A stretch of DNA of 60,259 nt from an uncultured Bacteroidales bacterium (GTDB lineage Bacteria; Bacteroidota; Bacteroidia; Bacteroidales; JAIPAH01), in contig CAYXJS010000002.1 of assembly GCA_964465045.1 (NCBI GenBank), positions 1 to 60,259 of the forward strand, given 5' to 3'. A model generated the notes under the pieces. That model was not told the DNA's origin. It searched no databases and was given only the letters and a program-made list of their open reading frames with translations. Below are positions 2,641 to 50,238 of this stretch, piece after piece; the stretch's first letter is position 1, and each line of letters opens with the position of its first letter. Position numbers and translations under genes: made by a program.

Positions 2641-2652
2641 GATATCTTTGTT

Positions 2653-4125: not shown

Positions 4126-4193
4126 CAATGTTGTAATGTTAAAATTATATTAATTAAACAAGGTCATTACCAGACCTTTACAGGGAATGATTG

Positions 4194-27712: not shown

Positions 27713-27713
27713 A

Positions 27714-28496: not shown

Positions 28497-28508
28497 GACA
28501 GCAAATTA

Positions 28509-32898: not shown

Positions 32899-34100
32899 GA
32901 TGAATCCTTTTCTTTATGATAATTTGTTGTATGTTCTGTATGAATAAAATGGGTTTTAGCTTCGCGATGAAACAGCAGTGATTTGAACATCAGCAAAAAA
33001 CCGAACGGTAATTTTGATAAGGCTTTTAATGTTTTGAAGGTGTAAAACCTGCGGGGCGTAGCAGCAAAGAAGCCACTTAATGAAAAAAGCAGCGCTGTCA
33101 TCCATAAAGCCTGTAAGAGGGGTGGATTAAAAAAGAGTGATAACGTGTTTATTATCAAAAGCAAACCCAATAATAATATACGTGGTGGCTGCACAAACTG
33201 AAACGCTTTATTGAAATAATCAAGGTTGCCTTTTGAAAGGAAATGCCAAAACGAGATCAAGAAATCCTTTCTTAAATAATAAAGCTGGGCAGATATCCAT
33301 CGCTTTCTTTGGTTACTAAAGGCTTGTGAGTTTTGGACTTTTTCATCGAATACATACGCTGAGGCATGATAATCAATTATATGGCGGTTTTTGATGATTT
33401 TGAGTTCTAACTGCTTGTCAAATCCGCCAATTGCATTCACATCCCTCATGATTTCTTTGAAAAAACCATAACGAAACGCCATAGCCGAACCGATTAGAGC
33501 AGAGGAGAGGCCCACGTTGCGATGGCCTTTACGAAAGACGTTGTTATTGATTTCTTCGCTAATAGCGTCTAAAACTGAAAACGCGGTGTTGTTATTCTTG
33601 GCCACCCGGTGGCCTTGTATTGCAATCTGATTCTCACTGAAAGCCTGATTGATTTTTTCCAGGTAATCCGGTTCCATAATGTTGTCGGCGTCCAGCACAA
33701 CAGCAAGATCATATTCATCCTCAGGCAATTGCTCAAAAGCTTTGTTGAGCGCTTTTGATTTTGTGCTTCTATCAAATGAAACTTCAATCAGTTTGACAGG
33801 CTTTTGCCGTATCTTATTTAATGTAGCTTTTTCAAACGAATCGGCAATAACGATGATGTCATACTTATTTGCAGGATAGTTTTGATTAAGGGATTCGTCA
33901 ATTACCTCAAGAATAACCTTGTCTTCTTTAAAACCGGGAATAAGCACAGCGAATCTGTGCTGCTTCTGAAGGTTATCTTTTCGGATATGATACGGAAAGA
34001 CCGAAGCTACAGCAAAAAATAAAAAGTAAAATGCTGATAGCGCTATATAAATAAAAAGCAGCCACTGAAGCAGCATTCCTGTTGAAAAAAGTATATCCAT
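32895..34100 (-). CDS. Membrane-embedded GT2 glycosyltransferase with QxxRW motif, paralog of 34186..35388
   Basis: N-terminal TM; VLIPGFKEDKVI, VVLDADNIMEP, QRKRW; about 4 C-terminal TM helices. Collinear with the neighbouring 400-aa paralog. Confidence 0.85.
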   Translation of the reverse strand: MDILFSTGMLLQWLLFIYIALSAFYFLFFAVASVFPYHIRKDNLQKQHRFAVLIPGFKEDKVILEVIDESLNQNYPANKYDIIVIADSFEKATLNKIRQKPVKLIEVSFDRSTKSKALNKAFEQLPEDEYDLAVVLDADNIMEPDYLEKINQAFSENQIAIQGHRVAKNNNTAFSVLDAISEEINNNVFRKGHRNVGLSSALIGSAMAFRYGFFKEIMRDVNAIGGFDKQLELKIIKNRHIIDYHASAYVFDEKVQNSQAFSNQRKRWISAQLYYLRKDFLISFWHFLSKGNLDYFNKAFQFVQPPRILLLGLLLIINTLSLFFNPPLLQALWMTALLFSLSGFFAATPRRFYTFKTLKALSKLPFGFLLMFKSLLFHREAKTHFIHTEHTTNYHKEKDSS

Positions 34101-34185
34101 ATGTAGCTATTTTTAATCCGTATAAAGCTAATTCATCTTTAGCATTTTGTTTATCCTATAAAAATCAATTCATCATCAAATCACA

Positions 34186-35388
34186 TCATGAATTATCCTT
34201 ATTTTCATCCACTTTAGTTACAGTATGCGTTGTAGCCCCAAATCCTTTTTTTGCACTTTGCAACCGGCTAAGCGATATCATCATCAGGAAAAAACCGTAA
34301 GGCAGGAAAAATATGGCCTTAAACGTTCTGAAAGTGTAAAACCGGTTGGGTACGGCCAGGGCAAAAGCAGCTACCATTAATACAAACAAAAAAGTCCAAA
34401 TACAACTCAGTATTGTTAGATTATAAAAAAAAGAGCCAATAGTAAGCGCTGTAGTCAGCACAATCAGCATAATGCGGGGTGGCAGAAACTGCTGGAAGAG
34501 TTTGTCGAAATAATCATAATTGCCTTTAACTAATTGCTTTATCCCTTCACCAAAATAACGTACCGCATAGTACAACTGATTGAAAAGCCACCGGGTGCGT
34601 TGTTTTACGAACACTTTTCCGGCCGAGACCTTTTCATCATATATCCGGGCATCATCCCGGTACTCAATTTTAATATTATCAGCTAAAAGTTTAAATTCCA
34701 ATTCTTTATCTTCACCATAAGAATCAATGGTTGCCATATAGTTTTTATAGAGCGAATAGTTAAAGGCCATTCCCGAGCCTATCAGCGCTGAGGATACGCC
34801 CAGTTTACGGTGCCCTTTCCGGAAGATGCTGTTATTGATTTCTTCGCTAATCGCATCAAGCAGCGCAAAATAGGTGTTTTGGTTTTTGGCCATGCGGTGT
34901 CCCTGGACTGCTGTATATCCCGCATTCAGCGCATCATTCATCAAAGAAAGTACATTTGGAGCCATCACGTTATCTGCATCCAGAATCATAACAGCATCAT
35001 ATTTATCATCAGGTATCTCCTTCATGGTTTTGTTCAGGGCTTTGGACTTGGAACTTTTTTCAAACTCAACGACGTTCACAATTACAGGCAATTCATTCAA
35101 CTTTTCAAGGGTTTCACGAGAAAACGAATCTGCAATAACGATTACATCATAATAGTCTTTTGGATAATCTTGTTTGGTAGCCTCTCGGGCAACATCAACA
35201 ATTACCTGGTCTTCTTTATACCCCGGAATCAACACCACAAACCGGTTAAGCTTCTGCCGGGCAGGGGAGGGGGATTTTCGTTTAAGTCTTGATGCAAAGG
35301 CATAGGTAAAGAAATAAAGCGAGGCTATGCCTAAATAAAACAAAAGCACATACTGCAGGACATTTAAAATTGTATAAAAAATCGCCAT
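34186..35388 (-). CDS. Membrane-embedded GT2 glycosyltransferase with QxxRW motif, paralog of 32895..34100
   Basis: N-terminal TM; VLIPGYKEDQVI, MILDADNVMAP, QRTRW; C-terminal TM helices. Confidence 0.85.
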   Translation of the reverse strand: MAIFYTILNVLQYVLLFYLGIASLYFFTYAFASRLKRKSPSPARQKLNRFVVLIPGYKEDQVIVDVAREATKQDYPKDYYDVIVIADSFSRETLEKLNELPVIVNVVEFEKSSKSKALNKTMKEIPDDKYDAVMILDADNVMAPNVLSLMNDALNAGYTAVQGHRMAKNQNTYFALLDAISEEINNSIFRKGHRKLGVSSALIGSGMAFNYSLYKNYMATIDSYGEDKELEFKLLADNIKIEYRDDARIYDEKVSAGKVFVKQRTRWLFNQLYYAVRYFGEGIKQLVKGNYDYFDKLFQQFLPPRIMLIVLTTALTIGSFFYNLTILSCIWTFLFVLMVAAFALAVPNRFYTFRTFKAIFFLPYGFFLMMISLSRLQSAKKGFGATTHTVTKVDENKDNS

Positions 35389-35402
35389 ATTGCTGAGTTT
35401 AA

Positions 35403-36323
35403 TTATAACATCGGATTCTCATGTATTGTTTTATCAAACATATGATGCATATGCCATCCCACTGCACGCAGAAAAGCATGAAAAAGCTTGATTTTCCCCT
35501 TTAACAGAATTACAAGTGCATTTTTTGGAATAGCTACAAAAAGCTGATAAAGCATGCCCAAGACAAACTTTTTTCCAAAAATATTTCTTCTCATATACAC
35601 CATTCTGTTTCTATAAAGATAGTAAATTTTTAAAGCGCTCAACTTTCCTGTAGAAATTGATTCTTTATGATAAACTAACGAGTTATGAACATAATGTATT
35701 TCGTATCCAGCCCTTTTAATCCGGTCGCAATAGTCGGCTTCCTCGTAATACAGGAAAAAGATGTAAGACATCATGCCTAACTCACGAATCAGGTCCATAG
35801 GAACCATCATTGCGGCGCCGTGGGCATAGGCCGTTTTTCTGTCCTCGTCATGTTGACCAAGGTCTTGCTCCCGGTATCCATAAGCAAAATTTCTGATGGT
35901 TATCGGGTTCATATCCGTATAACCGGCATATTGAATGGTATCCGGAGTATGAAAAAAACGAATTTTTGGCGAAACGGCTCCGGTTTTCGGATTCGTTCTG
36001 AATTTTTCAATCAATGGCTCCAAAAAATCGGGCCGCACTTCCGTATCATTATTCAGGAACATCACAAAATCGCCGTTAGCTGCCATAATGCCCATGTTAT
36101 TGCCTGCTGCAAAGCCGTAATTAATGGGGTTTTTTATCAGCATACAATTCGGATACCGCTGCTTAATTTTATCCGGGTTGCCCTGCGCGGAAGCGTTATC
36201 AACCACAATAACCTCAAGGTTTGGATAGGTTACCTTTTGAAGTGATGCCAGCAACAGGCATGTCACTTCACTTTGGTTATAGTTTACCGTAACAATGCTT
36301 ACCAAAGGGTAACGCTTCTTCAT
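35403..36323 (-). CDS. Soluble-type GT2 glycosyltransferase (rhamnosyltransferase-like), paralog of 36320..37243
   Basis: VSIVTVNYNQSEVT, VVDNAS, FLNNDTEV. About half of the positions are identical by eye to the upstream 307-aa protein. Confidence 0.85.
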   Translation of the reverse strand: MKKRYPLVSIVTVNYNQSEVTCLLLASLQKVTYPNLEVIVVDNASAQGNPDKIKQRYPNCMLIKNPINYGFAAGNNMGIMAANGDFVMFLNNDTEVRPDFLEPLIEKFRTNPKTGAVSPKIRFFHTPDTIQYAGYTDMNPITIRNFAYGYREQDLGQHDEDRKTAYAHGAAMMVPMDLIRELGMMSYIFFLYYEEADYCDRIKRAGYEIHYVHNSLVYHKESISTGKLSALKIYYLYRNRMVYMRRNIFGKKFVLGMLYQLFVAIPKNALVILLKGKIKLFHAFLRAVGWHMHHMFDKTIHENPML

Positions 36324-37243
36324 AGTGCCGGGTTTTCATGTATCTTTGGGTTGAATAAGTTTTTTATGTGCCAGGCAATAGCGTTATGGTAAGCTTTAAG
36401 TAAATTCCATTTGCCTTTCAATAAAAAAGTTATGTAGTTTTTGGGTATGGATATGAAAACCAGATAAAACAGCGCCATTAAAAACCGGAATCCATGCGTA
36501 TTGCGCCTCATGTATAAAATACGGCTTCGGTTTAAGTAATAAACCTGCAGTGAAGAATAGAAACCGGTTGATATAGATTCTTTATGGTAAATCAGCGAAT
36601 TGTGTACATAAAAGATTTTTTTTCCTGATTCGCGGATTCTGAACCCCCAATCCATCTCTTCATAGTAGAGAAAAAAGATATTGGCCATAAGACCAATATC
36701 TTGTATTACCTTTCTGGGAATTAACATAGCAGCACCGTGGGCATACCATGTAACGCTGTCTTTATCAAACTGACCTTTGTCAATTTGGTTGAAACCAACA
36801 GCATGATTACGTATGGTGAGCTTGTGAATGGAGGTGAATCCGGCAAACTGAAGCATATCAGGCGTGTGATGATAACGGATTTTCGGACTTACGGCTCCGG
36901 CTTCAGGGTTATTTTGCAGTTTTTGCACCAAGGGCTCCAAAAAATCAGGCTCTACTTCAGTGTCGTTATTCAACAGCAAAATATAATCTCCTTTGCTGTG
37001 ACGAATGCCATAATTGTTACCACCTGCAAAGCCTAAGTTTTCTGTAGTTTTAAAGTATAATATTTCCGGATACGCTTCTTTCAGCCAAGAGGAGTCTTCT
37101 TTCGGAGAAGCATTATCAACAACAATAATTTCTGTATTGGGATAGGATATTTTTCGGAGCGATTTTAAACACTCGGCAGTCACATCCGAATGATTATAAT
37201 TTATTGTAACGATAGAAACAAGTGGTGCATTTGCCTCTTTCAT
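36320..37243 (-). CDS. Soluble-type GT2 glycosyltransferase, paralog of 35403..36323
   Basis: VSIVTINYNHSDVT, VVDNAS, LLNNDTEV. ATGA overlap with the downstream paralog. Confidence 0.85.
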   Translation of the reverse strand: MKEANAPLVSIVTINYNHSDVTAECLKSLRKISYPNTEIIVVDNASPKEDSSWLKEAYPEILYFKTTENLGFAGGNNYGIRHSKGDYILLLNNDTEVEPDFLEPLVQKLQNNPEAGAVSPKIRYHHTPDMLQFAGFTSIHKLTIRNHAVGFNQIDKGQFDKDSVTWYAHGAAMLIPRKVIQDIGLMANIFFLYYEEMDWGFRIRESGKKIFYVHNSLIYHKESISTGFYSSLQVYYLNRSRILYMRRNTHGFRFLMALFYLVFISIPKNYITFLLKGKWNLLKAYHNAIAWHIKNLFNPKIHENPAL

Positions 37244-37293
37244 GATATAAGTTTATCAGGTGAACAAAACGCTATTTAGAGAACAAGAAAACG

Positions 37294-38787
37294 TTATATA
37301 TAGCTTCCTTTACCGAAAACACTTTCGCCCCGTTTTTTCAGTGCTATCATTTCATCATCCAGCCAGGGAGCCATAAACATAAATGCCATGGAAATATAAA
37401 CCAAAATACCCGAGGGCATCTGTCCAAACACTCCATTTCCGTATGAAGCCCCCATCAGTCCGACCATCCCGGCGATGAGGGCGCTTATTATGAATTTCAT
37501 CTCGGGGTCTTCCAATCGTGCCATCACGTAGTATGACCCTTTTAAGACAATATAAAACATCATCACCAGGTGTAAAACAAGACCTACAATACCTTGCTCA
37601 GCCCAAATCTGCACATACCAGCTATCTGTAGCGATATTAGCCAGAAAGCCCTGCGGACTGAATCGTTTTCCCCAGTTTCCTGCTGACCCAATTCCACCAC
37701 CAAAAGGTTTATCTTTGAGATAATCCTTGAGCATTTCCTTTGTTTCGAGACGTACTTGCAGTGAAGCATCCTCAGCAGGGCGAAAAGCGGTACGCATTCG
37801 GCGAATCTGAGAAATTCCCTGGCCGAGGTAGGTATATCTGAAAAAGACCGTAGCTGCAGTCATCAAAACTAAACCGATAATAATGGCCCTGTAATTCTTA
37901 GTGTGAATTAAATAAACCAGAAATCCTACCCCAGGTACGACGATGGCGCCTCGAGTACCTGAAATCATCATGCCATAAAAGCCGGCCAGCGCCATGGTCC
38001 AAAACACCACCTTGTTTTTGAATCCGCTGAGATGCAGTGCCAAAATCGTGCCAACGACAAACGCTACCGCCTGTGCAGCGCCAAACTGTCCTGCATCGCT
38101 GAGAAATGAAAATATCCGTAATTCCCCGAAAATAATATGCGTTACAGCACCCCCTTCGTCTAACCATCTTTGCTCTGCAAAATCAGGCCCGAACATCATC
38201 TGCTGAACTCCTTTCAGAGTAACTAAAACCGTCCAGAAAGCCCACATATAGAGAAAAACATAGACGTATTTCACTCTGTTGAAAATCAAGAATGTGATAG
38301 GGATAAGCAACAGCATGTAAAGCGACATCCCGCGCATCGCATAAAACCATGCAGTTCGGCTAAGCGATAAAGGATTAAAAAACTGGGCTACCGAATACAA
38401 AAACCATATCAGGGCAATTAGTGTTAGCTCATTCTGAATGGGCCGCAAATCCAGTTTTTGATAAAAATATTTGAAAAAGATAGCAATATAAGTTAATACT
38501 AGCACGCCATCGATCCCTAAACCCAAAGGAACTCCCGGTATATATCTGCTTAAACCGATTGCCGAAAATGCCAGAATAATAATTGTATATACACCAATTC
38601 TCGGGTTGATGAAAAAACGGTTCAGGTAAATCAATACAAGGGGTATGGCGATTAAAATTGCGGCTGTTTTCATCCCTCCTGTAGAGAGAATATAACCTAA
38701 CCCCACTGAAAATAAAATGAGTAAAACCAGCGATAATGGATCTCGCAGCATCATAGCCCCGGTTTTATTTCTGCTTATCGAACTCAT
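37294..38787 (-). CDS. O-antigen polymerase/ligase-family (Wzy-like) integral membrane protein
   Basis: 497 aa with at least 10 hydrophobic helices and one large hydrophilic loop (...RRMRTAFRPAEDASLQVRLETKEMLKDYLKDKPFGGGIGSAGNWGKRF...), as in Wzy_C-type proteins. Located between the flippase and the GTs. Confidence 0.7.
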   Translation of the reverse strand: MSSISRNKTGAMMLRDPLSLVLLILFSVGLGYILSTGGMKTAAILIAIPLVLIYLNRFFINPRIGVYTIIILAFSAIGLSRYIPGVPLGLGIDGVLVLTYIAIFFKYFYQKLDLRPIQNELTLIALIWFLYSVAQFFNPLSLSRTAWFYAMRGMSLYMLLLIPITFLIFNRVKYVYVFLYMWAFWTVLVTLKGVQQMMFGPDFAEQRWLDEGGAVTHIIFGELRIFSFLSDAGQFGAAQAVAFVVGTILALHLSGFKNKVVFWTMALAGFYGMMISGTRGAIVVPGVGFLVYLIHTKNYRAIIIGLVLMTAATVFFRYTYLGQGISQIRRMRTAFRPAEDASLQVRLETKEMLKDYLKDKPFGGGIGSAGNWGKRFSPQGFLANIATDSWYVQIWAEQGIVGLVLHLVMMFYIVLKGSYYVMARLEDPEMKFIISALIAGMVGLMGASYGNGVFGQMPSGILVYISMAFMFMAPWLDDEMIALKKRGESVFGKGSYI

Positions 38788-38791
38788 TAAA

Positions 38792-40240
38792 TCACAACGT
38801 TTTGTTTTTCAATTTATCTGTAAACTTAAACCAATAATCCTGATAAAAACGCCAACCTTCAATAAGAATGTTACGCATGTGTACATCAATTTCGTTTCGA
38901 AGATAGCCATATCCCACCAACATTCCAACAATAGTCATCAAAATAGTAACCAAAGCAACGCCCTGTAGTGTGAAATAGAAGCTGAATTGCGCGCTGGCAG
39001 AGAACAGGTTATCAAAAGCAAGCCCGGTGTTAAAAAGCAGTGTGATTAAAGCTACTCCTAAAACATATTTCATTACTACAAAAATAACAAAAACATCCCC
39101 AATGATATTGGCCAGTGTCATCCATATTACTTTAAAAAAGTTTTTTCGTGGTCGGTTTAAACTGTCCAGCGCCACACCTGTAAAACGATCAATGGGAAGC
39201 AAAAGGCCGTAAATGGCAAAAATTCTGAATATATCGGCTGTATGAACATATTGATGGCCTCCTAAAATAATAACAAATTCCTCGGCAAAAATGAACCCGA
39301 AAACAGCTACAGGCACTAAAAGGTAGGTGATGGCTCCGGCGTAAGTATAGTAGATTTTTTTAAACTCCTGGTAGTTTTTGTTGATGCTGGCTTTCGACAT
39401 CATAGGGTATGCTGTGGCCATAAAGCTGCGAATGGGAATTTCGATGATTTCAGTTAACTTAAGTGGCACACTATACATTGCTACACCCGTAGTACTCATA
39501 AATGTACTGATTCCCAGTATAAACGTATCAGAACTTTTAAGTAAATTGCTGCCTATTAGTGTTCCGGTGGTGTATTTTCCAAAATTCAGGATGACTTTAT
39601 TGGCGTTTTGGGTGGTTTTGCGGATGTACTTTAGGCCATCCCATTGCACAACCATAGTAAAAATACTTGTAACTAATTGTAAAGCAAGATAAACAGCTAC
39701 AACCACATCAATAGCATAGCCAAAAATAAAAAGGTTAAAAACCAGGAAAACAACAAAAGAGCCGGTCTGAATAATTCTTATGATCAGCACTTTTAAAAAA
39801 TCCTGGTCGGCCTGTAGAATGGATAAGGCGTTATTAAAGGGCAAATTCAAAAAAGCGAGCAATGGATACCACAAAAAGAACAATCGGTACCCGGAAGAAA
39901 CGGTAAGATCGGGAAAAGCAAAACGGGCTAATAACAAAATAACGGCAACAACTGCACTGACAATAAACCCGATAACCCAATTTGAGCCAATGAGGGTTTC
40001 GCGTTCTTTTCCTTCAGCTCCAGCCAGAAAGCGCACTATAGCAGTCCGTGTGATGCCAAAACGCAACATCTCAAGAAAATTGCCGGCAGTAATAAACAAC
40101 ACCCACTCTCCGAAATGGTCTTTAGTTAATGTACGGGTGAGCAAAACGAAGCTAAAAAACCCGAACACGGCCACAGACAGATTGCTGGCCAGGGATAATA
40201 CATTTTTGTTTGTCAGGATTTGCTTTATGAAACCAACCAC
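38792..40240 (-). CDS. MOP-superfamily oligosaccharide flippase (Wzx-like)
   Basis: 482 aa with about 12-14 TM helices and a typical polysaccharide-biosynthesis-protein N-terminus (IKQILTNKNVLSLASNLSVAVFGFFSFVLLTR). The start codon is GTG at 40240, and there is no in-frame ATG for about 55 codons. Confidence 0.8.
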   Translation of the reverse strand: MVGFIKQILTNKNVLSLASNLSVAVFGFFSFVLLTRTLTKDHFGEWVLFITAGNFLEMLRFGITRTAIVRFLAGAEGKERETLIGSNWVIGFIVSAVVAVILLLARFAFPDLTVSSGYRLFFLWYPLLAFLNLPFNNALSILQADQDFLKVLIIRIIQTGSFVVFLVFNLFIFGYAIDVVVAVYLALQLVTSIFTMVVQWDGLKYIRKTTQNANKVILNFGKYTTGTLIGSNLLKSSDTFILGISTFMSTTGVAMYSVPLKLTEIIEIPIRSFMATAYPMMSKASINKNYQEFKKIYYTYAGAITYLLVPVAVFGFIFAEEFVIILGGHQYVHTADIFRIFAIYGLLLPIDRFTGVALDSLNRPRKNFFKVIWMTLANIIGDVFVIFVVMKYVLGVALITLLFNTGLAFDNLFSASAQFSFYFTLQGVALVTILMTIVGMLVGYGYLRNEIDVHMRNILIEGWRFYQDYWFKFTDKLKNKTL

Positions 40241-40243
40241 TTC

Positions 40244-43147
40244 TTATTGATTCTGCGGTTCGTCGTCCTTAAACTTAATTCTCACCCTGAAAGGCGCAGT
40301 AGCTTTATGCTTAAAACGTTTCCATGCTGTATGACCTGTACGCGGAATACCGTGAAGCATTTCATCGATAGCATACTTATCAGCCTGGTTAAGAATAAAC
40401 ATCGGCTCTTCGTTGGAAACCTGCATAAAGTTTTCCAATGCCATTTGGTCTGCATTTTTCCAGCTTTCTGTTGCTTTTGAAACAAGGAGAGAGCCATCGA
40501 TTGTTTTCATCAAATCTAAAGGATAAGAATTGTGAATAATAGACGGAATTTCGAGCAGAATGTAATCATACTCTGCATTATCAGAACGCAGGGCAGTGGA
40601 ATCAAGTAATTGTTTTACATGATCAATTTCAAAAAAGCGGTTATTGATGTCATAAATATATTCGCTTTCAATAAATTGCTGGTCATTGGTTTGCTTGTAA
40701 TTCATATACAGTACGTTAGACTCGTACGATTCAAGTTTTTCTTTAAGATGATGTCCTACGGTGGTTTTTCCGGATTCAGGCTGTGTACTGAACAAGAGGA
40801 TGAAGTAGGGTTTCACCGGTTTGTTGATAGAAGTATGCCTTAACTGCAGGCTTAGATTCTGTATAATGATTTCGGTTAATCTGCTGATTGAGTATGGCAA
40901 ATCTATACTTTCATCCTGGATATTCAAATCCGGGAATATACCGGCCATTTTCAGGCTTGTAGCTTTTCTCAACTGTTCGGGAGACCTGTTGGAATTGTCG
41001 AAATACTCCAATACAAGGATGACAAAAACAACCAAAATTAGACCCAGGAAGCCTGCCGCTAACATGAGTATTTTGGTATTACCGCCGGTTACAGTGAGCG
41101 GATAATAGGGTTCATCCACCACTTTTATATTTGATGTCATATCAAGGTTTTGCTGCCTCATACGAGCCTCGTTCAGGCTACGTAGCAATTCCAGGTATTC
41201 TTGTTCATTGACATCGATTTCTCTTTCGATGCGTTTTAGCGTTGCTCCAAGCGGTGCAAAAACAGCATAGATCTCTTTATACTCTTCTTTCCTTCCCTGT
41301 AAAACAGCCAAACTTGCTTTTGCAGACTCGTATTCTATTACATTTTGCAACCAGTTATTCAACAGATCCTCAATGGGAACGCCTTCTATGGTTTGCTGAT
41401 ACATAAACAATTGGTCGAGGTAAAGCTTGATCTCATCTTCTAATCGTTCTTTTTTTGCCTGGAGTTCTCTAACGCCACGCGAAGTAATGTCGTCATAATC
41501 CTGAGCAACTTCATTAACGATTAGTTTTTCTGTAACTTTAGAAAGTTCATTACGTTTATTTGTCAGCATGTCGCTTTTCAGGAAAATACTGTCTTTTTTC
41601 ATGAGTTTGGATTCCAGTTTATCAAGAGAAGCCCTTGCCCCCTGCATATCCACCATCTTATCCTGATACGTTTTATCAAGCTCTTCTTTTTGTAATGCGA
41701 TTGCCTCGGTTTGCTCGCTGTAATTAATAAGGTTGTTTTTTTTGTTGAACTCTAACAAACGGTCTTCAGCCGCTTTTAATTTTTCGTTGGCTTTGCGTAC
41801 TTCTTCTTTAAAATAGTTTACCACCTGGTCGGTTTGACTTATGCGTAAGCCCTTGTAATTATTAATGAAAACACCGGTAAGAATTTTCAGCGTTTGTTGA
41901 CAAATTCCGGGATCATCAGAGGAATACGTTACTTTAACCAGGTCTGAATTCTGAACACGTGTTATTTGTGCTTTAGAAATGGCCTCAACGCTGTAATGGG
42001 GGTGTCCGTACTGCAAAAGTTCATAAATAAAATTGGAGTCACTGCTATGATAATAAGCAGTGAGGTTTTCTACCGTTCTGTAAAAATCATTTTCATCAAC
42101 ACCAGGAGGAATTATCGCATCTTTAGCTCTATGCTTTGTTACTTTTTTATCGGGATTTAAAAAGCCATGCTGTTCCATCACATACTTCTCTGAGTATTTT
42201 ATAGCATCTGTCTTCTGCTGCCGGCTTTTGGTATCCCGGGGTTTTTCTTTGCTCACAATAATGGTAGAACCTGTTGGAATCTCATTGGAGTTTAAATTGT
42301 TCCAGGCCTTTAAATCATTGATGGAAGCGTTGTATTGTCTTGCTATAGAGAATAATGTTTCGTTGGGTTGAATTGTATGATATTGATTTTTTTCTTGTGT
42401 TCCTCGGGTTTGGTTTTGAGATTGATGTTTTATAGGCTGATCAGCGCTTACAATCAAACGATCGCCTACCTTTAGATCGCCATCCTGCAAGTCGTTCATC
42501 CGGATTAGTTGTCCTACCGTTAAGTCATACTGAGCTGCAATAGATGCAAGCGATTCACCATATCTGACCATATGATGCATAACATCATCCTTTGTTTTTG
42601 TTGTGTCGCCGTTATTCTTTTCAGATTCTATATTATCTGGCTGTGCACTACCAATGGGTTGGTTTTTCATTCGGTTTAATTCGTCTTCCATTTGCTGAAT
42701 CTCATACTCACGCTCTTTGATTTGTTCCAATTTGTCCCGCTCAGCGCCGGTACGGCCATACTTTACTACCAAATCCTTGACTTCTTTGGGAACAATATTT
42801 TGCAACTGACGGTAATTTTGTTCAGAAATATACTGTTTGTTGTGTTTTTCAAGACTCAAGTGTTGAGCCAGAAGTTTTATAGCTGTTTGCTCCTTGGTGT
42901 TTCTGGAACCGATGATATTAATCAGGTTGTCGAACTGCATATTTGTCCCGTAAAAGTCTAAATTAGTTCTTTCCTGATTTTCAAGAGAATATCCGGAAGC
43001 GATTCCTGTATATATTGTTGTTTCAGATGTAAACGCCTTGGGTTGCCTCTTACCGAAAAAATATACTGAAACGACCAAAATAAGTGGTACACCAATCAGC
43101 AATAACAAATTCGCTTTAAGAAGCCTGAAGAATTGATTGAAATCCAT
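40244..43147 (-). CDS. Polysaccharide co-polymerase (Wzz/Wzc-like) carrying two periplasmic LysM domains and a degenerate C-terminal P-loop (BY-kinase-like) domain
   Basis: TM1 (LLLLIGVPLILVVSVYFF). Two LysM repeats (HMVRYGESLASIAAQYDLTVGQLIRMNDLQDGDLKVGDRLIVS; YHTIQPNETLFSIARQYNASINDLKAWNNLNSNEIPTGSTIIVS). Long coiled-coil region, GNVR-like IKVVDEPYYPLTVTGGN, and TM2 (ILMLAAGFLGLILVVFVILVL). Cytoplasmic domain with Walker-A-like FSTQPESGKTT and Walker-B-like YDYILLEIPS. Confidence 0.8.
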   Translation of the reverse strand: MDFNQFFRLLKANLLLLIGVPLILVVSVYFFGKRQPKAFTSETTIYTGIASGYSLENQERTNLDFYGTNMQFDNLINIIGSRNTKEQTAIKLLAQHLSLEKHNKQYISEQNYRQLQNIVPKEVKDLVVKYGRTGAERDKLEQIKEREYEIQQMEDELNRMKNQPIGSAQPDNIESEKNNGDTTKTKDDVMHHMVRYGESLASIAAQYDLTVGQLIRMNDLQDGDLKVGDRLIVSADQPIKHQSQNQTRGTQEKNQYHTIQPNETLFSIARQYNASINDLKAWNNLNSNEIPTGSTIIVSKEKPRDTKSRQQKTDAIKYSEKYVMEQHGFLNPDKKVTKHRAKDAIIPPGVDENDFYRTVENLTAYYHSSDSNFIYELLQYGHPHYSVEAISKAQITRVQNSDLVKVTYSSDDPGICQQTLKILTGVFINNYKGLRISQTDQVVNYFKEEVRKANEKLKAAEDRLLEFNKKNNLINYSEQTEAIALQKEELDKTYQDKMVDMQGARASLDKLESKLMKKDSIFLKSDMLTNKRNELSKVTEKLIVNEVAQDYDDITSRGVRELQAKKERLEDEIKLYLDQLFMYQQTIEGVPIEDLLNNWLQNVIEYESAKASLAVLQGRKEEYKEIYAVFAPLGATLKRIEREIDVNEQEYLELLRSLNEARMRQQNLDMTSNIKVVDEPYYPLTVTGGNTKILMLAAGFLGLILVVFVILVLEYFDNSNRSPEQLRKATSLKMAGIFPDLNIQDESIDLPYSISRLTEIIIQNLSLQLRHTSINKPVKPYFILLFSTQPESGKTTVGHHLKEKLESYESNVLYMNYKQTNDQQFIESEYIYDINNRFFEIDHVKQLLDSTALRSDNAEYDYILLEIPSIIHNSYPLDLMKTIDGSLLVSKATESWKNADQMALENFMQVSNEEPMFILNQADKYAIDEMLHGIPRTGHTAWKRFKHKATAPFRVRIKFKDDEPQNQ

Positions 43148-43920
43148 TATTCAAGTCCTTTAATTTGGTTAAACTTCATCCCTACCATATTTTGTAGCAG
43201 ATCATATGCTGTTTCAAATTCAGCTCTTGCTTTTTCATATTCAATGGCTCCCCGCGTAGCAATTTCTTTTAGCCGGGTTATTTCCGCCGTGGAGATCTGG
43301 CCGTTGACAAACTCGTTTTCAGCCATCTCCATTTGAATTTTAGTATAATGCTGATAATCATTATTTATTTTAAGAATTTTTTGTTGTTGCGCTAAGGTAT
43401 TGTATAGCTCAATTACATTGGCCCTGACTTCTTGCCGGTTGATTTCCTGTTGTGCCATAGAAATTTCCACCCATTTTTTTTGCTTATTGATGCGATTTCT
43501 TCGGTCGACCCAGGATGTCAGCGGAAAACGAATAGCAAATGCAAAATTAAAATTCCAACGGTGCGACTGAGTAAGGTAAAAGCGGTCTAATCGTGTTAAT
43601 TCATCCTTATCATTAAAGTAATATTGTCCGTAATTAAGTTCGGGTTCAAAATAGAAATGTTCAAGGTAATCACGTTGGGTTGATTTAACTTCATATCTGT
43701 AATAATCTGTACGCATCTTTTCTATTGTTACCTGGGGCGCGTTTGCCACGGCAGAATCCAATAAAGCTTCCAGGGGTGGCAGATAATCTGTAATATCATC
43801 GCTTAACGGGTCAAAATAGTCATCACCAGGTCTTTGTGCAACAGCGGTGTGGTACAACGTAACAACTACTATAATAAGGATCACTTTCCTCATAAAGAAT
43901 CGCATTTTCATTTTTTTCAT
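43147..43920 (-). CDS. Secreted half-length TolC/OEP-like outer-membrane protein (hypothetical)
   Basis: 257 aa with a signal peptide. LPPLEALLDSAVANAPQV resembles the start of an OEP repeat. A beta-hairpin-like aromatic stretch (FYFEPELNYGQYYF...WNFNFAFAIRFPL) follows, then long helices (...NRQEVRANVIELYNTLAQQQKILKINNDYQ...EYEKARAEFETAYDLLQNMVG). Only one repeat is present. Its stop overlaps the co-polymerase ATG by 1 nt. Confidence 0.6.
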   Translation of the reverse strand: MKKMKMRFFMRKVILIIVVVTLYHTAVAQRPGDDYFDPLSDDITDYLPPLEALLDSAVANAPQVTIEKMRTDYYRYEVKSTQRDYLEHFYFEPELNYGQYYFNDKDELTRLDRFYLTQSHRWNFNFAFAIRFPLTSWVDRRNRINKQKKWVEISMAQQEINRQEVRANVIELYNTLAQQQKILKINNDYQHYTKIQMEMAENEFVNGQISTAEITRLKEIATRGAIEYEKARAEFETAYDLLQNMVGMKFNQIKGLE

Positions 43921-44090: not shown

Positions 44091-45287
44091 TTAAACATTT
44101 TCTTTTTGAAAAAGCGCCGGAATTGTCATAAAAATGATTTTCAAATCCAGCCAAAATGAATTATTCCTGGCATATTGATTATCAAGTGCTTTCCGCTCAT
44201 CTTCAGACATTTCACTTTTTCCGCGCTTATAAACCTGCCAAAGTCCCGTTATACCGGCAGGGCCTAAGAATCGTTCGCTCCATCCGTCAGAAGTCAACAA
44301 CTCTGCTTCGTATAAAGGCAATGGCCTGTTTCCTACAATAGACATATCGCCTTTAAGCACATTAAATAGTTGCGGTAGTTCATCAATACTGGTTTTCCGG
44401 ATAAAAGTGCCCACTTTCGTTATACGGGGATCATCCTTAAATTTGATAAAAGCCGATTGTGTTTTTGAGCGTTTTTGCCTCAGGTACTGATTTTCACATA
44501 TTTCTTTCCCGCCAATGTAGAGTATTGGAGAACAGGGTTTCCCTAAGCGTTCACAATCAGGACAATTTGCATCCACTTGTTCGTCATTCTCATTCTCGAG
44601 ATCTTCTTTGGTTTTATATTGATTCAGATGTTCCAGGTCTTTAAGCATTTTATCTGCCCCGGTATACATGGAGCGGAATTTAAGGAAATCAAAAACATTA
44701 TAACCAGTACCTACGCGCTTGGATTTATATACAATCGGACCTTTTGATTCAAGGCGTATTGCCAGGGCGGTAAGCAGGAAGACAGGCGATAACAAAATAA
44801 TGACCAGCGAGGCAAAAACAATATCAAAAGCCCTTTTGAAAAGGGGAATCTTATACTCCTGGCTTTGCGGTTCTTCGTTTTGTTTAACAGCGATGTTTTT
44901 TTTGTACTTTTTCAAAAAGGAGATGCGCTGATATAACCGATCCAGATTCAATGGTACCCGGTATAAATCATCTATTTTGTTGTTAACCGATTCTTGAAAA
45001 ACTTTCGGTTCAAAATCATGCGCGATTAAAATAAAAGGTATTTCAGGATTAATGTTTTTTTTCTGAAGCAGTTTATAGGTTTCGATCCCATCTATTCCAG
45101 GAATATGCACTTCACAAAGTATCCCGTCAACATCCGGATAATGAGCAAGAAAGTTCAACGCTTTCAGACTATTTTCCTTAACGGTGACAGTAAAGAATTC
45201 ATTTTCTTCAAAAGGTTTAATATTTCTTACATCACCCCCAATATAAAGAATATGATAAACGGGCTTTGATTGTTGTTCCTGTTCCAT
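44091..45287 (-). CDS. Initiating phosphoglycosyl transferase (Bac_transf family) fused to an N-terminal pseudo-receiver domain
   Basis: Residues about 11-128 align with CheY-like receivers, but the key residues are replaced (LYIGGD, LCEVHIPGIDG, LIAH, YRVPL). A TM helix (IVFASLVIILLSPVFLLTALAI) is followed by ESKGPIVYKSKRVG, FLKFRSM, DDPRITKVGTFIRKTSIDELPQLFNVLKGDMSIVGNRP and GITGLWQV, the signature of bacterial sugar transferases. Confidence 0.88.
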   Translation of the reverse strand: MEQEQQSKPVYHILYIGGDVRNIKPFEENEFFTVTVKENSLKALNFLAHYPDVDGILCEVHIPGIDGIETYKLLQKKNINPEIPFILIAHDFEPKVFQESVNNKIDDLYRVPLNLDRLYQRISFLKKYKKNIAVKQNEEPQSQEYKIPLFKRAFDIVFASLVIILLSPVFLLTALAIRLESKGPIVYKSKRVGTGYNVFDFLKFRSMYTGADKMLKDLEHLNQYKTKEDLENENDEQVDANCPDCERLGKPCSPILYIGGKEICENQYLRQKRSKTQSAFIKFKDDPRITKVGTFIRKTSIDELPQLFNVLKGDMSIVGNRPLPLYEAELLTSDGWSERFLGPAGITGLWQVYKRGKSEMSEDERKALDNQYARNNSFWLDLKIIFMTIPALFQKENV

Positions 45288-45316
45288 AAACCTGTTTTAT
45301 TTCGGAATTTGATTAA

Positions 45317-45688
45317 CTATTTTCGTGCCAAATGCAATTCAATCCTTAGCTCGAGCTCTTCAGGATTAAAAGGTTTTACTATATAATCGTTGGCGCCCAG
45401 TTTCAGTGTCTTTATTTTTTCTGCGCTACTTTCAATGCCTGAAAGCATAATCATGGGAATTTCCTTAAAATAACCGCTGGCTCTTACATTTTTTATAAAC
45501 TCATATCCATCCAGGTTTGGCATTTGTATATCTACAACAATCAAATCCGGAAAGTTTCCTTCCTGCAGCCAATTCAAGCCCTCTTCACCATCGCTCTTGG
45601 TAATAACGTCATATTTTTTTTTCAGGTAGTTTTCCAATAAAACCCGGATGGTTTTTTCATCATCAATGACTAGTATTTTCTTTTTCAT
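45317..45688 (-). CDS. Stand-alone CheY-like response regulator receiver (no output domain)
   Basis: MKKKILVIDDEKT...DLIVVDIQMPNLDGYEF...PMIMLSGIES...GANDYIVKPF, with all canonical receiver residues present. The track ORF starts at a TTG (45709); ATG at 45688 gives the usual N-terminus. Confidence 0.9.
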   Translation of the reverse strand: MKKKILVIDDEKTIRVLLENYLKKKYDVITKSDGEEGLNWLQEGNFPDLIVVDIQMPNLDGYEFIKNVRASGYFKEIPMIMLSGIESSAEKIKTLKLGANDYIVKPFNPEELELRIELHLARK

Positions 45689-45734
45689 AGACTGAATATT
45701 TGCATGCAATTCTTGGTTTATTCAACAACTCAAA

Positions 45735-45742
45735 CAAAAATA
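45735..45742 (-). promoter_or_regulatory. Candidate -7 promoter box (TATTTTTG on the minus strand) ahead of the polysaccharide locus
   Basis: Plus-strand CAAAAATA is the reverse complement of TAnnTTTG, 47 nt upstream of the receiver ATG, in the 126-147-bp gap after uvrB. Motif match only. Confidence 0.3.
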
Positions 45743-50237: not shown

Positions 50238-50238
50238 T

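What the first reader, a model, noticed from the sequence alone, without database searches (positions are those of the whole stretch)
44091..45709. Phosphorylatable stand-alone receiver next to a pseudo-receiver fused to the committing phosphoglycosyl transferase
The first two genes of the polysaccharide locus form a matched pair.
- The 123-aa protein (45317-45688) is a complete CheY-like receiver with every phospho-chemistry residue intact (VIDDE, VVDIQMPNLDG, MLSG, VKPF), but it has no output domain.
- The next protein is a Bac_transf sugar transferase. Its first ~120 residues align position-for-position with that receiver, yet each catalytic position is replaced: DD->GG (LYIGGD), acceptor D->E (LCEVHIPGIDG), S/T->A (LIAH), K->V (YRVPL).

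So an unphosphorylatable receiver fold is welded to the enzyme that commits undecaprenyl phosphate to glycan synthesis. It is encoded beside an output-less receiver that can be phosphorylated. This suggests post-translational gating of polymer initiation by receiver-receiver docking, rather than transcriptional control. I am not aware of a characterised example.

Caveat: no Hpt domain is recognisable in the window to connect the hybrid kinases at 20152-24071 to this receiver.
Basis: partly seen in the sequence, partly recalled or inferred. Interest (0 to 1): 0.8.

Follow-up and report, generated by a model that had tools for sequence, protein, structure and literature searches.

The report
Split receiver switch on sugar-priming enzyme
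A small phosphorylatable signalling protein is encoded directly beside a polysaccharide-starting enzyme that carries a dead copy of the same signalling domain; this pairing is conserved across Bacteroidota and probably lets a phosphorylation signal switch polymer synthesis on at its first step.

Summary
45317-45688(-) encodes a 123-aa canonical receiver (SDRR). 44091-45287(-) encodes a small monotopic phosphoglycosyl transferase (PGT) whose first ~137 residues are a confidently predicted receiver fold with GG/E/A/V at the DD/D/T/K positions.

It is a family trait. In 121 close homologues the first acidic position is always G, the acceptor is E in 120, and K never occurs. Across Bacteroidales, Cytophagales and Chitinophagales loci, 49 of 50 pseudo-receiver::PGT genes have a stand-alone receiver immediately upstream; PGTs without the N-domain never do.

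New here: Cytophagales also have PGTs fused directly to a true receiver of the stand-alone family (Emticicia oligotrophica, Algivirga). All 5 inspected lack a separate receiver.

Best reading: a split receiver. The free receiver takes the phosphoryl group and docks on the fused pseudo-receiver to gate undecaprenyl-phosphate priming post-translationally. Docking, sign and phosphodonor are inferred.

The receiver/pseudo-receiver pairing on a small PGT appears undescribed. Verdict: new variant of a known kind; interest about 0.66.

The parts
45735..45742 (-). Candidate Bacteroidota-type -7 promoter box TAnnTTTG (TATTTTTG), 46 nt upstream of the receiver's ATG.
   Evidence: Motif scan of the three intergenic regions. 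It is the only match, with none in the 29-nt receiver-PGT gap or the 170-nt PGT-OEP gap. The consensus itself comes from my own knowledge of Bacteroides promoters and was not tested here.
45317..45688 (-). Stand-alone single-domain response regulator (SDRR), 123 aa, with all phospho-chemistry residues intact (D9, D10, D53, S83, K105). The beta5-alpha5 signature GANDYIVKPFNPEELELRI is OmpR/PhoB-like.
   Evidence: Pfam Response_reg 97.8 bits. The best NCBIfam hits are the receiver halves of RpaB, PhoB and YycF. 845 homologues, of which the 120 best listed are all single-domain. Across 47 partner receivers the acceptor is D in 46 and K is present in 47.
44877..45287 (-). Pseudo-receiver (aspartate-less receiver, ALR) domain of the PGT, residues 1-137. 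It has G17-G18 for DD, E59 for the acceptor D, A89 for T and V111 for K. D106, D107 and R121 on the alpha4-beta5-alpha5 side are retained. Helix alpha5 (115-137) continues as a linker helix.
   Evidence: Pfam Response_reg 30.8 bits. PDB alignments. AF2 pLDDT above 90 with full (beta-alpha)5 topology. Foldseek receiver hits. Conservation in 121 and in 48 homologues.
44109..44837 (-). Small monotopic phosphoglycosyl transferase catalytic domain (Bac_transf, residues 151-393). It includes the re-entrant membrane helix (149-181, with the S167-P168 break) and the invariant D302-E303 pair.
   Evidence: Pfam Bac_transf 200.9 bits. TIGR03025 EPS_sugtrans 246 bits, below its cutoff. Foldseek PglC 8e37, E = 2.5e-14, TM 0.83. 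Invariant columns.
44460..44621 (-). Lineage-specific Cys-rich insert inside the catalytic domain (about residues 223-276; C242, C245, C252, C264), possibly zinc-binding.
   Evidence: The Bac_transf match spans 243 residues against a 179-position profile. The four Cys are at least 90% conserved in 48 close homologues. The insert is present in 14 of 47 loci; others have about 20 aa or a Cys-less acidic insert at the same site.
24071..43920 (-). Downstream Wzx/Wzy-type polysaccharide genes on the same strand. In order: OEP/TolC-like (43147-43920), LysM-Wzz/GNVR co-polymerase (40244-43147), Wzx flippase (38792-40240), Wzy polymerase (37294-38787), nine glycosyltransferases, hexapeptide acyltransferase, two methyltransferases, and a beta-helix protein with a T9SS sorting domain (24888-26549).
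   Evidence: Pfam scans. The first five genes are syntenic in relatives L005, L006, L088 and L089.
20152..24071 (-). Two hybrid histidine kinases at the 3' end of the gene string. One is TPR-TM-HisKA-HATPase-REC (21300-24071, 923 aa). The other is soluble DHp-HATPase-REC (20152-21300, 382 aa, H-box LSHDLLIPMNGI). Neither has an Hpt domain. They are candidate upstream phosphodonors.
   Evidence: Pfam. H-box read from the translation. Kinases also flank the RR-PGT pair in unrelated loci, there with Hpt domains.
5699..7864 (+). Orphan orthodox TPR-HisKA-HATPase kinase with no receiver domain and no adjacent response regulator. It could in principle phosphorylate the stand-alone receiver directly, without an Hpt.
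   Evidence: Pfam. Collinear with the hybrid TPR kinase at 23% identity, E = 4e-37. The link to the receiver is speculative.

Best explanation
The two genes form a split receiver module that controls the first committed step of a Wzx/Wzy-type polysaccharide pathway post-translationally.

Proposed mechanism:
1. The free 123-aa receiver accepts a phosphoryl group on D53 from a histidine kinase or phosphorelay.
2. In its phosphorylated, active conformation it docks on the unphosphorylatable receiver-fold domain welded to the N-terminus of the small monotopic PGT. The most likely contact is a receiver-receiver heterodimer on the alpha4-beta5-alpha5 face, derived from an ancestral homodimer.
3. The pseudo-receiver's alpha5 runs straight into the linker that precedes the re-entrant membrane helix. 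Docking is therefore transmitted to the catalytic domain and changes sugar-1-phosphate transfer to undecaprenyl phosphate. By analogy with EpsW/EpsZ the change is probably activation.

What is shown: both folds, their active-site states, near-obligate co-occurrence, and replacement of the pair by a single true-receiver::PGT fusion in sister lineages.

What is inferred: physical docking, the interface, the sign of regulation and the identity of the kinase.
For: 1. Anatomy. The free receiver is canonical. The fused domain is a high-confidence receiver fold with a dead pocket.

2. The dead pocket is selected, not decaying. In 121 homologues at 52-91% identity, G17 occurs in 121/121, E59 in 120/121 and K in 0/121. 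Among 126 representatives no more than 50% identical to each other, the first acidic position is G in 75 and K appears in only 21.

3. Adjacency.
- 46 of 48 complete pseudo-receiver::PGT genes have a 99-159-aa receiver ORF on the same strand, -11 to +114 nt upstream.
- Three further loci (L025, L029, L050) have it split by frameshifts, giving 49/50.
- This holds where the neighbours differ: Cytophagales L002 and Puia L003.
- PGTs lacking the N-domain, or with large-PGT N-termini, have none: 0 of about 11.
- Two free-receiver homologues, looked up through the receiver itself, both sit beside a REC+Bac_transf gene.

4. Rosetta-stone and complementary distribution.
- 40 of 116 Cytophagales clusters are PGTs fused directly to a receiver with all five catalytic residues. 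It scores 108-132 bits on the free-receiver HMM and only 33-59 on the pseudo-receiver HMM.
- 5 of 5 such loci lack any free receiver.
- Pseudo-receiver forms in the same bacterial family and the same FIST/hybrid-kinase neighbourhood have one 8 nt upstream.
- Fisher's exact test, 0/5 against 51/52, gives p = 1.4e-6.

5. Co-evolution. Partial correlation of free-receiver and pseudo-receiver distances, controlling for the catalytic domain, is 0.57 (permutation p about 5e-4). Free receiver against catalytic domain, controlling for the pseudo-receiver, is 0.09.

6. The pairing persists where both partners have degenerate pockets (L062, L068, L069, L074). That argues for a protein-protein partnership.

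7. Phosphorelay context. HisKA-HATPase-REC-Hpt kinases flank the pair in L011 and L052; the L079 neighbour is homologous in its kinase core only. Two hybrid kinases close this operon.

8. Operon structure. The receiver-PGT gap is 29 nt and the only promoter-like box lies upstream of the receiver.

9. Precedent. EpsW~P directly activates the PGT EpsZ (PMC12802240). Receiver/pseudo-receiver heterodimers have been proposed or shown for CmrR/CmrT and BldM/WhiI (PMC12632262).
Against: - No direct test of binding was possible.
- The two domains share only 28% identity. The pseudo-receiver's most conserved residues (G17, E59, G64, P112) cluster on the former active-site face, not only on alpha4-beta5-alpha5. 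That is equally compatible with docking to a kinase DHp or an Hpt.
- Mapping of PhoB dimer-interface residues is only partly conserved in the pseudo-receiver and gives no clean charge complementarity.
- No Hpt exists in the window to link the hybrid kinases to the receiver.
- One locus (L039) has the pseudo-receiver::PGT without a free receiver upstream.
- The mirror-tree signal can be inflated by different saturation of fast and slow domains.
- The Fisher test treats related loci as independent.
- Small monoPGTs are reported to work as monomers (PMC12802240 discussion), so the EpsZ dimer-promotion mechanism may not transfer.
Confidence: 0.62

Rival explanations
1. The free receiver does regulate the PGT directly, but it contacts the catalytic domain or membrane interface, as EpsW contacts EpsZ's DUF and catalytic domain. 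The pseudo-receiver would be a constitutive scaffold or homodimerisation domain, with its invariant Glu acting as a built-in phosphomimic, and not the docking site.
For: - EpsW is modelled on EpsZ's DUF plus catalytic domain.
- Glu at the acceptor position is a known partial phosphomimic and many pseudo-receiver structures are constitutive dimers (PMC12632262).
- L075 shows a receiver-like ORF abutting a plain small PGT with no fused N-domain.
- The pseudo-receiver occupies the same position, just N-terminal to the re-entrant helix, as the cytoplasmic DUF of large PGTs.
Against: - Free receivers are never found next to PGTs that lack the N-domain (apart from the single odd locus L075).
- Receiver divergence tracks the pseudo-receiver and not the catalytic domain.
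- The acceptor Glu is not universal in the wider family: G, S, N, H and D also occur. A phosphomimic role therefore cannot be general.
Confidence: 0.15
2. The free receiver is a phosphate sink or shuttle inside the phosphorelay of the two hybrid kinases. Its real output would lie elsewhere, for example a DNA-binding regulator encoded outside the window or the Wzz/PCP machinery. The pseudo-receiver on the PGT would be an unrelated evolutionary relic.
For: - Single-domain receivers commonly act as sinks or connectors (general knowledge).
- Two hybrid kinases without Hpt are in the operon.
- Sigma54-type response regulators sit next to related Cytophagales loci, so transcriptional control exists in the family.
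Against: - A sink has no reason to be glued to pseudo-receiver::PGT genes in 49/50 loci across three orders with otherwise different neighbours. Many of those loci have no kinase within 6 kb.
- A sink also has no reason to vanish exactly where the PGT carries a live receiver of the same family.
- A relic domain would not keep G17 and E59 invariant or fold with pLDDT above 90.
Confidence: 0.1
3. The pseudo-receiver is a decoy or docking site for the kinase or Hpt, binding through its conserved former active-site face. It would tether the phosphorelay to the membrane-bound PGT or compete with the free receiver for the phosphodonor. Regulation would then work through kinase occupancy and not through receiver-receiver contact.
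For: - The most conserved pseudo-receiver positions (G17, N39-A43, E59, G64, P112) lie on the beta-alpha loop face that receivers use to contact DHp and Hpt domains.
- Binding competitors of this kind have been hypothesised for pseudo-receivers (PMC12632262).
- Hpt-bearing kinases flank the pair in several loci.
Against: - It does not explain why the free receiver co-evolves with the pseudo-receiver.
- It does not explain why the pair persists in loci with no nearby kinase.
- The active-site face has lost the acidic pocket and Lys that contribute to phosphodonor recognition.
Confidence: 0.08
4. The adjacency is a neutral by-product of a tandem duplication of the receiver-coding segment. It would be inherited vertically, with no present functional coupling.
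For: - Intermediate N-domains (P0265, P0248) score on both HMMs, consistent with a duplication origin.
- Close relatives share extended synteny.
Against: - The pair survives at 23% (pseudo-receiver) and 46% (receiver) median identity, and through complete turnover of the neighbouring genes.
- The free receiver is under strong purifying selection, at 76-81% identity where the PGT is 52-60%.
- Neutral remnants would not be retained in 49/50 loci.
Confidence: 0.05

Closest known systems
EpsW / EpsZ of Myxococcus xanthus: a single-domain response regulator that activates the initiating PGT (PMC12802240, mBio 2025)
   Same: A phosphorylatable single-domain receiver with no output domain, encoded with a Wzx/Wzy polysaccharide pathway. 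It acts post-translationally on the enzyme that loads the first sugar-phosphate onto undecaprenyl phosphate. The logic is the same: gate the shared lipid carrier at step one.
   Different: - EpsZ is a large monoPGT with a 4-TM bundle, a cytoplasmic DUF and the catalytic domain. The window enzyme is a small PglC-type monoPGT with a pseudo-receiver in place of the TM bundle and DUF. It scores 153.9 bits on the EpsZ model against a cutoff of 800.
- EpsW is proposed to promote EpsZ dimerisation by contacting the DUF and catalytic domain. Here the predicted target is a receiver-fold domain.
- EpsW is fed by a CheA-type kinase (DifE). Here the neighbours are hybrid histidine kinases.
- The phylum differs: Myxococcota against Bacteroidota.
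Receiver-domain fusions to small monoPGTs, catalogued in the monoPGT sequence-similarity network (O'Toole, Imperiali and Allen 2021, PNAS; known to me only through its citation in PMC12802240, because the paper itself was not held)
   Same: The same domain architecture, Response_reg + Bac_transf on a small monoPGT.
   Different: As cited, that survey lists the fusion as a regulatory-domain architecture. I found no statement that most such domains are pseudo-receivers, that they come with an obligate adjacent free receiver, or that true- and pseudo-receiver versions alternate with the absence or presence of that partner. I could not read the original, so this difference is provisional.
Receiver / pseudo-receiver partnerships: BldM-WhiI heterodimer (Streptomyces) and CmrR-CmrT (Clostridioides difficile), as reviewed in PMC12632262
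   Same: A receiver-fold protein that lacks phospho-chemistry works together with a partner receiver encoded nearby. Heterodimer formation that depends on the partner's state is the proposed principle.
   Different: Those pairs are DNA-binding transcription factors, whereas here the output is a membrane enzyme. In BldM/WhiI neither partner is known to be phosphorylated. Here one partner keeps a fully canonical pocket in 42-46 of 47 cases.
Plant pseudo-response regulators and fungal Rim15p (Glu at the acceptor position)
   Same: The acceptor Asp is replaced by Glu, which is the commonest substitution in aspartate-less receivers (PMC12632262).
   Different: These are eukaryotic proteins with different outputs and no paired free receiver. 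In the wider PGT family Glu is not universal.

Membership tests
Response regulator receiver domain (PF00072), canonical: the 123-aa protein | Profile match above the curated cutoff, and a (beta-alpha)5 receiver | tested here: met
   97.8 bits against a cutoff of 30.2, profile positions 1-110 of 111.
Response regulator receiver domain (PF00072), canonical: the 123-aa protein | The five catalytic residues DD, D, T/S and K | tested here: met
   D9, D10, D53, S83 and K105 align with CheY and PhoB. Conserved in 42-47 of 47 partner receivers.
Response regulator receiver domain (PF00072), canonical: the 123-aa protein | Actual phosphorylation on the acceptor Asp by a cognate kinase or Hpt | not testable with these tools
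   Needs phosphotransfer assays. No Hpt in the window.
Pseudo-receiver / aspartate-less receiver (definition in PMC12632262): PGT residues 1-137 | Recognised computationally and structurally as a receiver fold | tested here: met
   PF00072 at 30.8 bits, just above the cutoff. AF2 pLDDT above 90 with beta1-alpha5 in order. Foldseek receivers at rmsd 2.0-2.6 A.
Pseudo-receiver / aspartate-less receiver (definition in PMC12632262): PGT residues 1-137 | Lacks at least one of the five catalytic residues; an ALR lacks the acceptor Asp | tested here: met
   GG, E, A and V occupy the DD, D, T and K positions. Fixed in 121 homologues.
Small monotopic phosphoglycosyl transferase (PglC-like, PF02397 Bac_transf) | Bac_transf catalytic domain with the Asp-Glu dyad | tested here: met
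   200.9 bits. D302-E303 invariant. PglC 8e37 at TM 0.83.
Small monotopic phosphoglycosyl transferase (PglC-like, PF02397 Bac_transf) | A single re-entrant membrane helix with a Ser-Pro break, and no N-terminal 4-TM bundle or DUF as in large monoPGTs | tested here: met
   Helices 149-165 and 167-181 flank the invariant P168 (S167 conserved). The N-terminus is a soluble receiver fold. The WbaP match is weak overall (TM 0.36).
Small monotopic phosphoglycosyl transferase (PglC-like, PF02397 Bac_transf) | Sugar-1-phosphate transfer to undecaprenyl phosphate, and the donor sugar's identity | not testable with these tools
   All specific NCBIfam equivalogs (WcaJ, WbaP, EpsZ, HfsE) score below their cutoffs.
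EpsW/EpsZ-type regulation (PMC12802240) | The target is a large monoPGT whose cytoplasmic DUF lacks the dimerising beta-hairpin | tested here: not met
   The enzyme is a small monoPGT with no TM bundle or DUF. The EpsZ model scores 153.9 bits against a cutoff of 800.
EpsW/EpsZ-type regulation (PMC12802240) | A single-domain phosphorylatable receiver that co-occurs with the PGT | tested here: met
   49/50 loci.
EpsW/EpsZ-type regulation (PMC12802240) | Direct receiver-PGT interaction that stimulates transferase activity | not testable with these tools
Biochemistry is needed.
OmpR/PhoB-type receiver (alpha4-beta5-alpha5 dimeriser): the free receiver | Conserved charged and hydrophobic residues of the alpha4-beta5-alpha5 face (PhoB R91, E96, D101, E111, R115; the residue list is from my memory of the PhoB/ArcA structures) | tested here: inconclusive
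   The free receivers keep R/K91 in 38/47, E96 in 26, D101 in 34, E111 in 33 and R115 in 31. The pseudo-receivers keep D/N/E101 in 47/47 and R/K115 in 34/47, but the other positions vary. No DNA-binding domain is present, so it is not a member of the OmpR family as such.
Wzx/Wzy-dependent polysaccharide pathway | Initiating PGT, Wzx flippase, Wzy polymerase and a Wzz/PCP co-polymerase in one locus | tested here: met
   Bac_transf, Polysacc_synt, Wzy_C and Wzz/GNVR (weak) plus nine glycosyltransferases. A canonical Wza/OPX exporter was not found; a small OEP/TolC-like protein sits in its place.

The most novel reading that the evidence does not exclude
The pair would be a natural split receiver produced by duplication of an ancestral phosphorylatable receiver::PGT fusion. 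One copy stayed free and kept the phospho-chemistry. The fused copy lost it and became a dedicated docking and transducer domain, so the ancestral phosphorylation-driven homodimer became an obligate heterodimer formed in trans. If so, this would give a general and experimentally tractable answer to how bacterial pseudo-receivers are switched: by a phosphorylated paralogous partner. It would also establish a second, mechanistically distinct and phylum-wide route by which two-component signalling directly gates undecaprenyl-phosphate commitment. Cis (Emticicia oligotrophica DSM 17448) and trans (Arcicella aurantiaca) versions are available in cultured relatives for swap experiments.
Probability: 0.4. 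Interest if true: 0.8.

Novelty: new variant of a known kind. Interest (0 to 1): 0.66.

Why it matters
Undecaprenyl phosphate is a scarce carrier shared with peptidoglycan synthesis, so control at the priming step decides whether a cell commits to making a capsule or exopolysaccharide. Only one case of a response regulator acting directly on a PGT has been characterised (EpsW/EpsZ, 2025).

This module would extend that principle to small monoPGTs and to a whole phylum that is important in gut, marine and soil carbon cycling. The proposed mechanism also differs: receiver to pseudo-receiver.

It bears on an open question as well. A 2025 review states that how bacterial pseudo-receivers are activated "remains a mystery". 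Here nature supplies matched cis (live receiver fused) and trans (dead receiver fused plus live receiver free) versions of the same enzyme, some in cultured strains. That makes the question directly testable.

Tried and rejected
1. Complex modelling.

2. Reading the 2021 monoPGT network paper. It is not held by DOI or PMC id, and the 2024 monoPGT annotation preprint has no mention of receivers. What that survey said about receiver fusions is therefore known only second-hand.

3. First genome scan. It used a single protein and returned only 4 loci, using up that collection. An alignment query would have been better; the metagenome scan with A1 made up for it.

4. Search for an Hpt in the window. 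None in the Pfam-scanned ORFs. The ORFs in unannotated gaps were inspected by eye only and look spurious.

5. PhoB dimer-interface mapping. I hoped for complementary charge swaps between the free receiver and the pseudo-receiver. The pattern is ambiguous, so I do not use it as evidence for a specific interface.

6. Apparent exceptions to adjacency.
- L025, L029 and L050 turned out to be frameshifted assemblies that do contain the receiver and the pseudo-receiver.
- L039 remains a true exception.
- L067 has a shorter N-extension (75 aa by the catalytic-domain alignment), only a weak ALR-HMM hit and no upstream receiver. I left it unclassified.

7. I considered whether the pseudo-receiver is simply a mis-scored low-complexity N-terminus, since its Pfam score sits at the cutoff. 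Rejected on the AF2 and Foldseek results.

8. I considered that the invariant Glu makes the domain a constitutive phosphomimic in general. Rejected as a general rule because wider relatives carry G, S, N, H or D at that position.


Full report
**1. What is in the window**

On the minus strand, downstream of uvrB (45836-47848), lie a 123-aa ORF (45317-45688) and, 29 nt further on, a 398-aa ORF (44091-45287).
- The small protein is a full-length receiver. Response_reg scores 97.8 bits. D9/D10, D53, S83 and K105 are in place against CheY and PhoB.
- The larger protein has a Bac_transf domain at residues 151-393 (200.9 bits) and a marginal Response_reg match at residues 26-122 (30.8 bits, cutoff 30.2).
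- The marginal score does not mean a doubtful domain. PDB sequence alignments put GG, E, A and V at the DD, D, T and K positions.
- An AlphaFold2 model from 48 homologues gives pLDDT above 90 for a complete beta1-alpha5 receiver. E59 sits at the end of beta3, and alpha5 (115-137) extends towards the re-entrant membrane helix at 149-181.
- Foldseek matches the N-domain to OmpR/PhoB-type receivers (rmsd 2.0-2.6 A) and the C-domain to the small monoPGT PglC (TM 0.83).

**2. Genomic setting**

The pair heads a roughly 25-kb same-strand string:
- an OEP-like protein and a LysM-bearing Wzz/GNVR co-polymerase;
- Wzx, Wzy and nine glycosyltransferases;
- acyl- and methyl-transferases;
- a T9SS-sorted beta-helix protein;
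- two hybrid histidine kinases at the end. The 382-aa one has a recognisable H-box.

A Bacteroidota-type TAnnTTTG box lies 46 nt upstream of the receiver's ATG. There is none between the receiver and the PGT. No Hpt domain occurs anywhere in the window. An additional orphan orthodox TPR kinase sits at 5699-7864.

**3. The dead active site is a conserved family character**
- The 120 best database homologues (52-91% identity, Bacteroidales and Marinilabiliales) all have the same architecture.
- With the window protein added, 121 sequences show G17 in 121/121, Glu at the acceptor in 120/121, and never Lys at the K position.
- In 47 more divergent loci the domain keeps its beta/alpha periodicity. 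It never has a DD pair, and Glu at the acceptor remains the commonest residue (33/47).
- In 126 N-extended representatives from a library clustered at 50% identity, the first acidic position is G in 75 and K appears in only 21. The acceptor is E in 45 and D in 39.
- By the definition in PMC12632262 this is a pseudo-receiver, and mostly an aspartate-less receiver.

**4. The adjacency is near-obligate and specific**

I fetched 87 loci from genome and metagenome collections and analysed all ORFs.
- Of 48 PGT genes with a complete 5' end, a 120-190-aa N-extension and at least 450 nt of upstream DNA, 46 have a 99-159-aa receiver ORF on the same strand. The gap ranges from -11 to +114 nt.
- HMM searches of stop-to-stop fragments showed that L025, L029 and L050 also contain it, broken by frameshifts. 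That gives 49 of 50, and only L039 lacks it.
- The rule holds in a Cytophagales MAG and in a Puia (Chitinophagaceae) MAG. There the PGT is 41-42% identical and the neighbours are different glycosyltransferases.
- PGTs without the N-domain, or with large-PGT N-termini, have no upstream receiver.
- In the other direction, the free receiver has 845 homologues, and the 120 best listed are all single-domain proteins of 122-151 aa, most of them 122-124. Two that I looked up through the receiver itself both sit next to a REC+Bac_transf gene.
- The partner receivers are canonical: acceptor D in 46/47, K in 47/47, S/T in 45/47.
- Median identity to the window copies is 46% for the receiver, 23% for the pseudo-receiver and 60% for the catalytic domain.

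**5. True-receiver fusions replace the pair**
- Three library representatives (P0330, P0368, P0374) have all five catalytic residues. Their N-domains score 114-132 bits on an HMM of the free receivers and only 43-50 on the pseudo-receiver HMM.
- A homologue search from P0368 showed this is a sizeable Cytophagales (Spirosomataceae) class. Of 116 N-extended clusters, 40 are canonical and of free-receiver type. They include Emticicia oligotrophica DSM 17448 and Algivirga pacifica. Pseudo-receiver forms occur in the same family.
- All five true-receiver loci with upstream sequence lack a free receiver. Six-frame HMM searches confirmed this.
- The pseudo-receiver form in Arcicella aurantiaca has a 128-aa receiver 8 nt upstream, within the same FIST/hybrid-kinase neighbourhood. 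So does the intermediate P0265.
- A naive Fisher test (0/5 against 51/52) gives p = 1.4e-6. The loci are not phylogenetically independent.

This is Rosetta-stone evidence that the free receiver's function is tied to the PGT. It also indicates that the free receiver supplies in trans the phospho-acceptor that the fused domain has lost.

**6. Further indirect support**
- Pairwise distances of free receivers correlate with those of the pseudo-receivers after controlling for the catalytic domain: partial r = 0.57, permutation p about 5e-4. The reverse partial correlation, receiver against catalytic domain, is 0.09. This is suggestive only, because the domains saturate at different rates.
- In a deep subgroup (L062, L068, L069, L074) both partners have degenerate pockets yet remain paired.
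- In several loci the pair is flanked by kinases that do carry Hpt domains: HisKA-HATPase-REC-Hpt in L011 and L052. That fits the free receiver being the terminal acceptor of a phosphorelay.

**7. Mechanism**

Shown:
- the two folds and their active-site states;
- co-transcription-compatible spacing;
- conserved pairing;
- complementary distribution with cis fusions.

Inferred:
- the phosphorylated free receiver docks on the pseudo-receiver;
- the contact uses the alpha4-beta5-alpha5 face, as in OmpR/PhoB-type dimers. The free receiver keeps much of that signature. The pseudo-receiver keeps the D106-D107 and R121 equivalents, but the mapping is otherwise ambiguous;
- the signal passes through alpha5 and the linker to the catalytic domain;
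- the effect is activation, by analogy with EpsW/EpsZ.

The conserved former active-site face of the pseudo-receiver (G17, E59, G64, P112) leaves room for a kinase- or Hpt-docking role (rival 3). A complex model could not be computed.

**8. Comparison with what is known**
In Myxococcus xanthus the single-domain regulator EpsW~P acts post-translationally, lies in proximity to EpsZ, and stimulates its Gal-1-P transferase activity in Salmonella (PMC12802240).
- That paper notes, citing O'Toole et al. 2021, that small monoPGTs can carry receiver domains. It speculates that these may regulate by a mechanism without dimerisation.
- The window system is not an EpsW/EpsZ member. The enzyme is a small, not a large, monoPGT, and it fails the EpsZ model.
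- A 2025 perspective on pseudo-receivers (PMC12632262) does not mention PGT fusions. It calls pseudo-receiver activation a mystery and lists receiver/pseudo-receiver heterodimers (BldM-WhiI, CmrR-CmrT) as a hypothesis.
- Full-text searches found no description of the receiver + pseudo-receiver::PGT module.

**9. Verdict**

This is a real, conserved and previously uncharacterised variant of a newly recognised kind of regulation. It is not categorically new, because both the principle (a single-domain regulator acting on a PGT) and the architecture (REC::PGT) are published.

Three things appear to be new:
- the fused domain is a selected pseudo-receiver;
- it has an obligate phosphorylatable partner;
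- cis and trans versions alternate in nature.

Confidence in the split-receiver docking model is about 0.6. Interest is about 0.66.

Noticed in passing
window 44460-44621 (-), PGT residues ~223-276: There is a Cys-rich insert inside the Bac_transf catalytic domain (C242-x2-C245 ... C252 ... C264), at least 90% conserved in close homologues and modelled as a short helix plus beta-hairpin. The same site holds about 20 aa in Cytophagales/Chitinophagales relatives and a 60-84-aa acidic, Cys-less insert in another subfamily. It may be a zinc-binding module of unknown role.
   Followed up: partly
window 5699-7864 (+): An orphan orthodox TPR-HisKA-HATPase kinase with no receiver domain and no neighbouring response regulator. 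It is collinear with the hybrid TPR kinase at 21300-24071 (23% identity). It is a possible Hpt-independent donor for the free receiver, but nothing links them yet.
   Followed up: partly
window 40244-43147 (-): The polysaccharide co-polymerase (weak Wzz/GNVR matches) carries two LysM peptidoglycan-binding domains in its predicted periplasmic part. That is unusual for a PCP. The arrangement is conserved in relatives L005, L006, L088 and L089.
   Followed up: no
window 43147-43920 (-): A small (257 aa) OEP/TolC-like protein sits where a Wza/OPX exporter would be expected. No Poly_export-type protein was seen in the locus. The same gene follows the PGT in many relatives, including the true-receiver loci L091 and L097.
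   Followed up: no
window 24888-26549 (-): A right-handed beta-helix protein with a T9SS C-terminal sorting domain is embedded in the biosynthetic operun. It may be a secreted lyase or depolymerase, or a modifying enzyme for the polymer.
   Followed up: no
window 1120-2652: About 1.5 kb immediately downstream of the HlyD-family gene (2653-4128, minus strand) has no ORF longer than about 115 codons on either strand, only short overlapping fragments. It could be a degraded transporter gene or a non-coding element. Not examined.
   Followed up: no
L075 494-910 and 3381-4450: A variant arrangement. A separate 118-aa receiver-like ORF has ED, T and K intact but Ser at the acceptor position, and carries KPFNPEEL. 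It abuts a plain small PGT with no fused N-domain. A canonical single-domain receiver lies 2.6 kb upstream, before an 811-aa protein.
   Followed up: partly
L062, L068, L069, L074: In this deep-branching subgroup the free receiver has itself lost the acidic pair (ESN, ERN or NGN), and in L068 the acceptor too. The fused domain has Asp at the acceptor position but no DD or K. Both partners are pseudo-receivers yet still paired.
   Followed up: partly
L039 1640-2677: The only pseudo-receiver::PGT with ample upstream DNA (1.6 kb) and no free receiver. The upstream ORF ends about 60 nt before the PGT and is unrelated.
   Followed up: partly
L092, L095, L096, L098: Spirosomataceae loci share a divergently encoded module beside the PGT: a FIST-domain protein and a PAS-HisKA-HATPase-REC hybrid kinase, with (in L092, L095 and L096) a sigma54-type response regulator. 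This suggests combined transcriptional and post-translational control there.
   Followed up: no
window 47916-48989, 49089-50360 (-) and 57698-59422 (+): Three Exo_endo_phos family paralogues lie in one window, one of them with a T9SS sorting domain. The first two are syntenic with uvrB in relatives.
   Followed up: no
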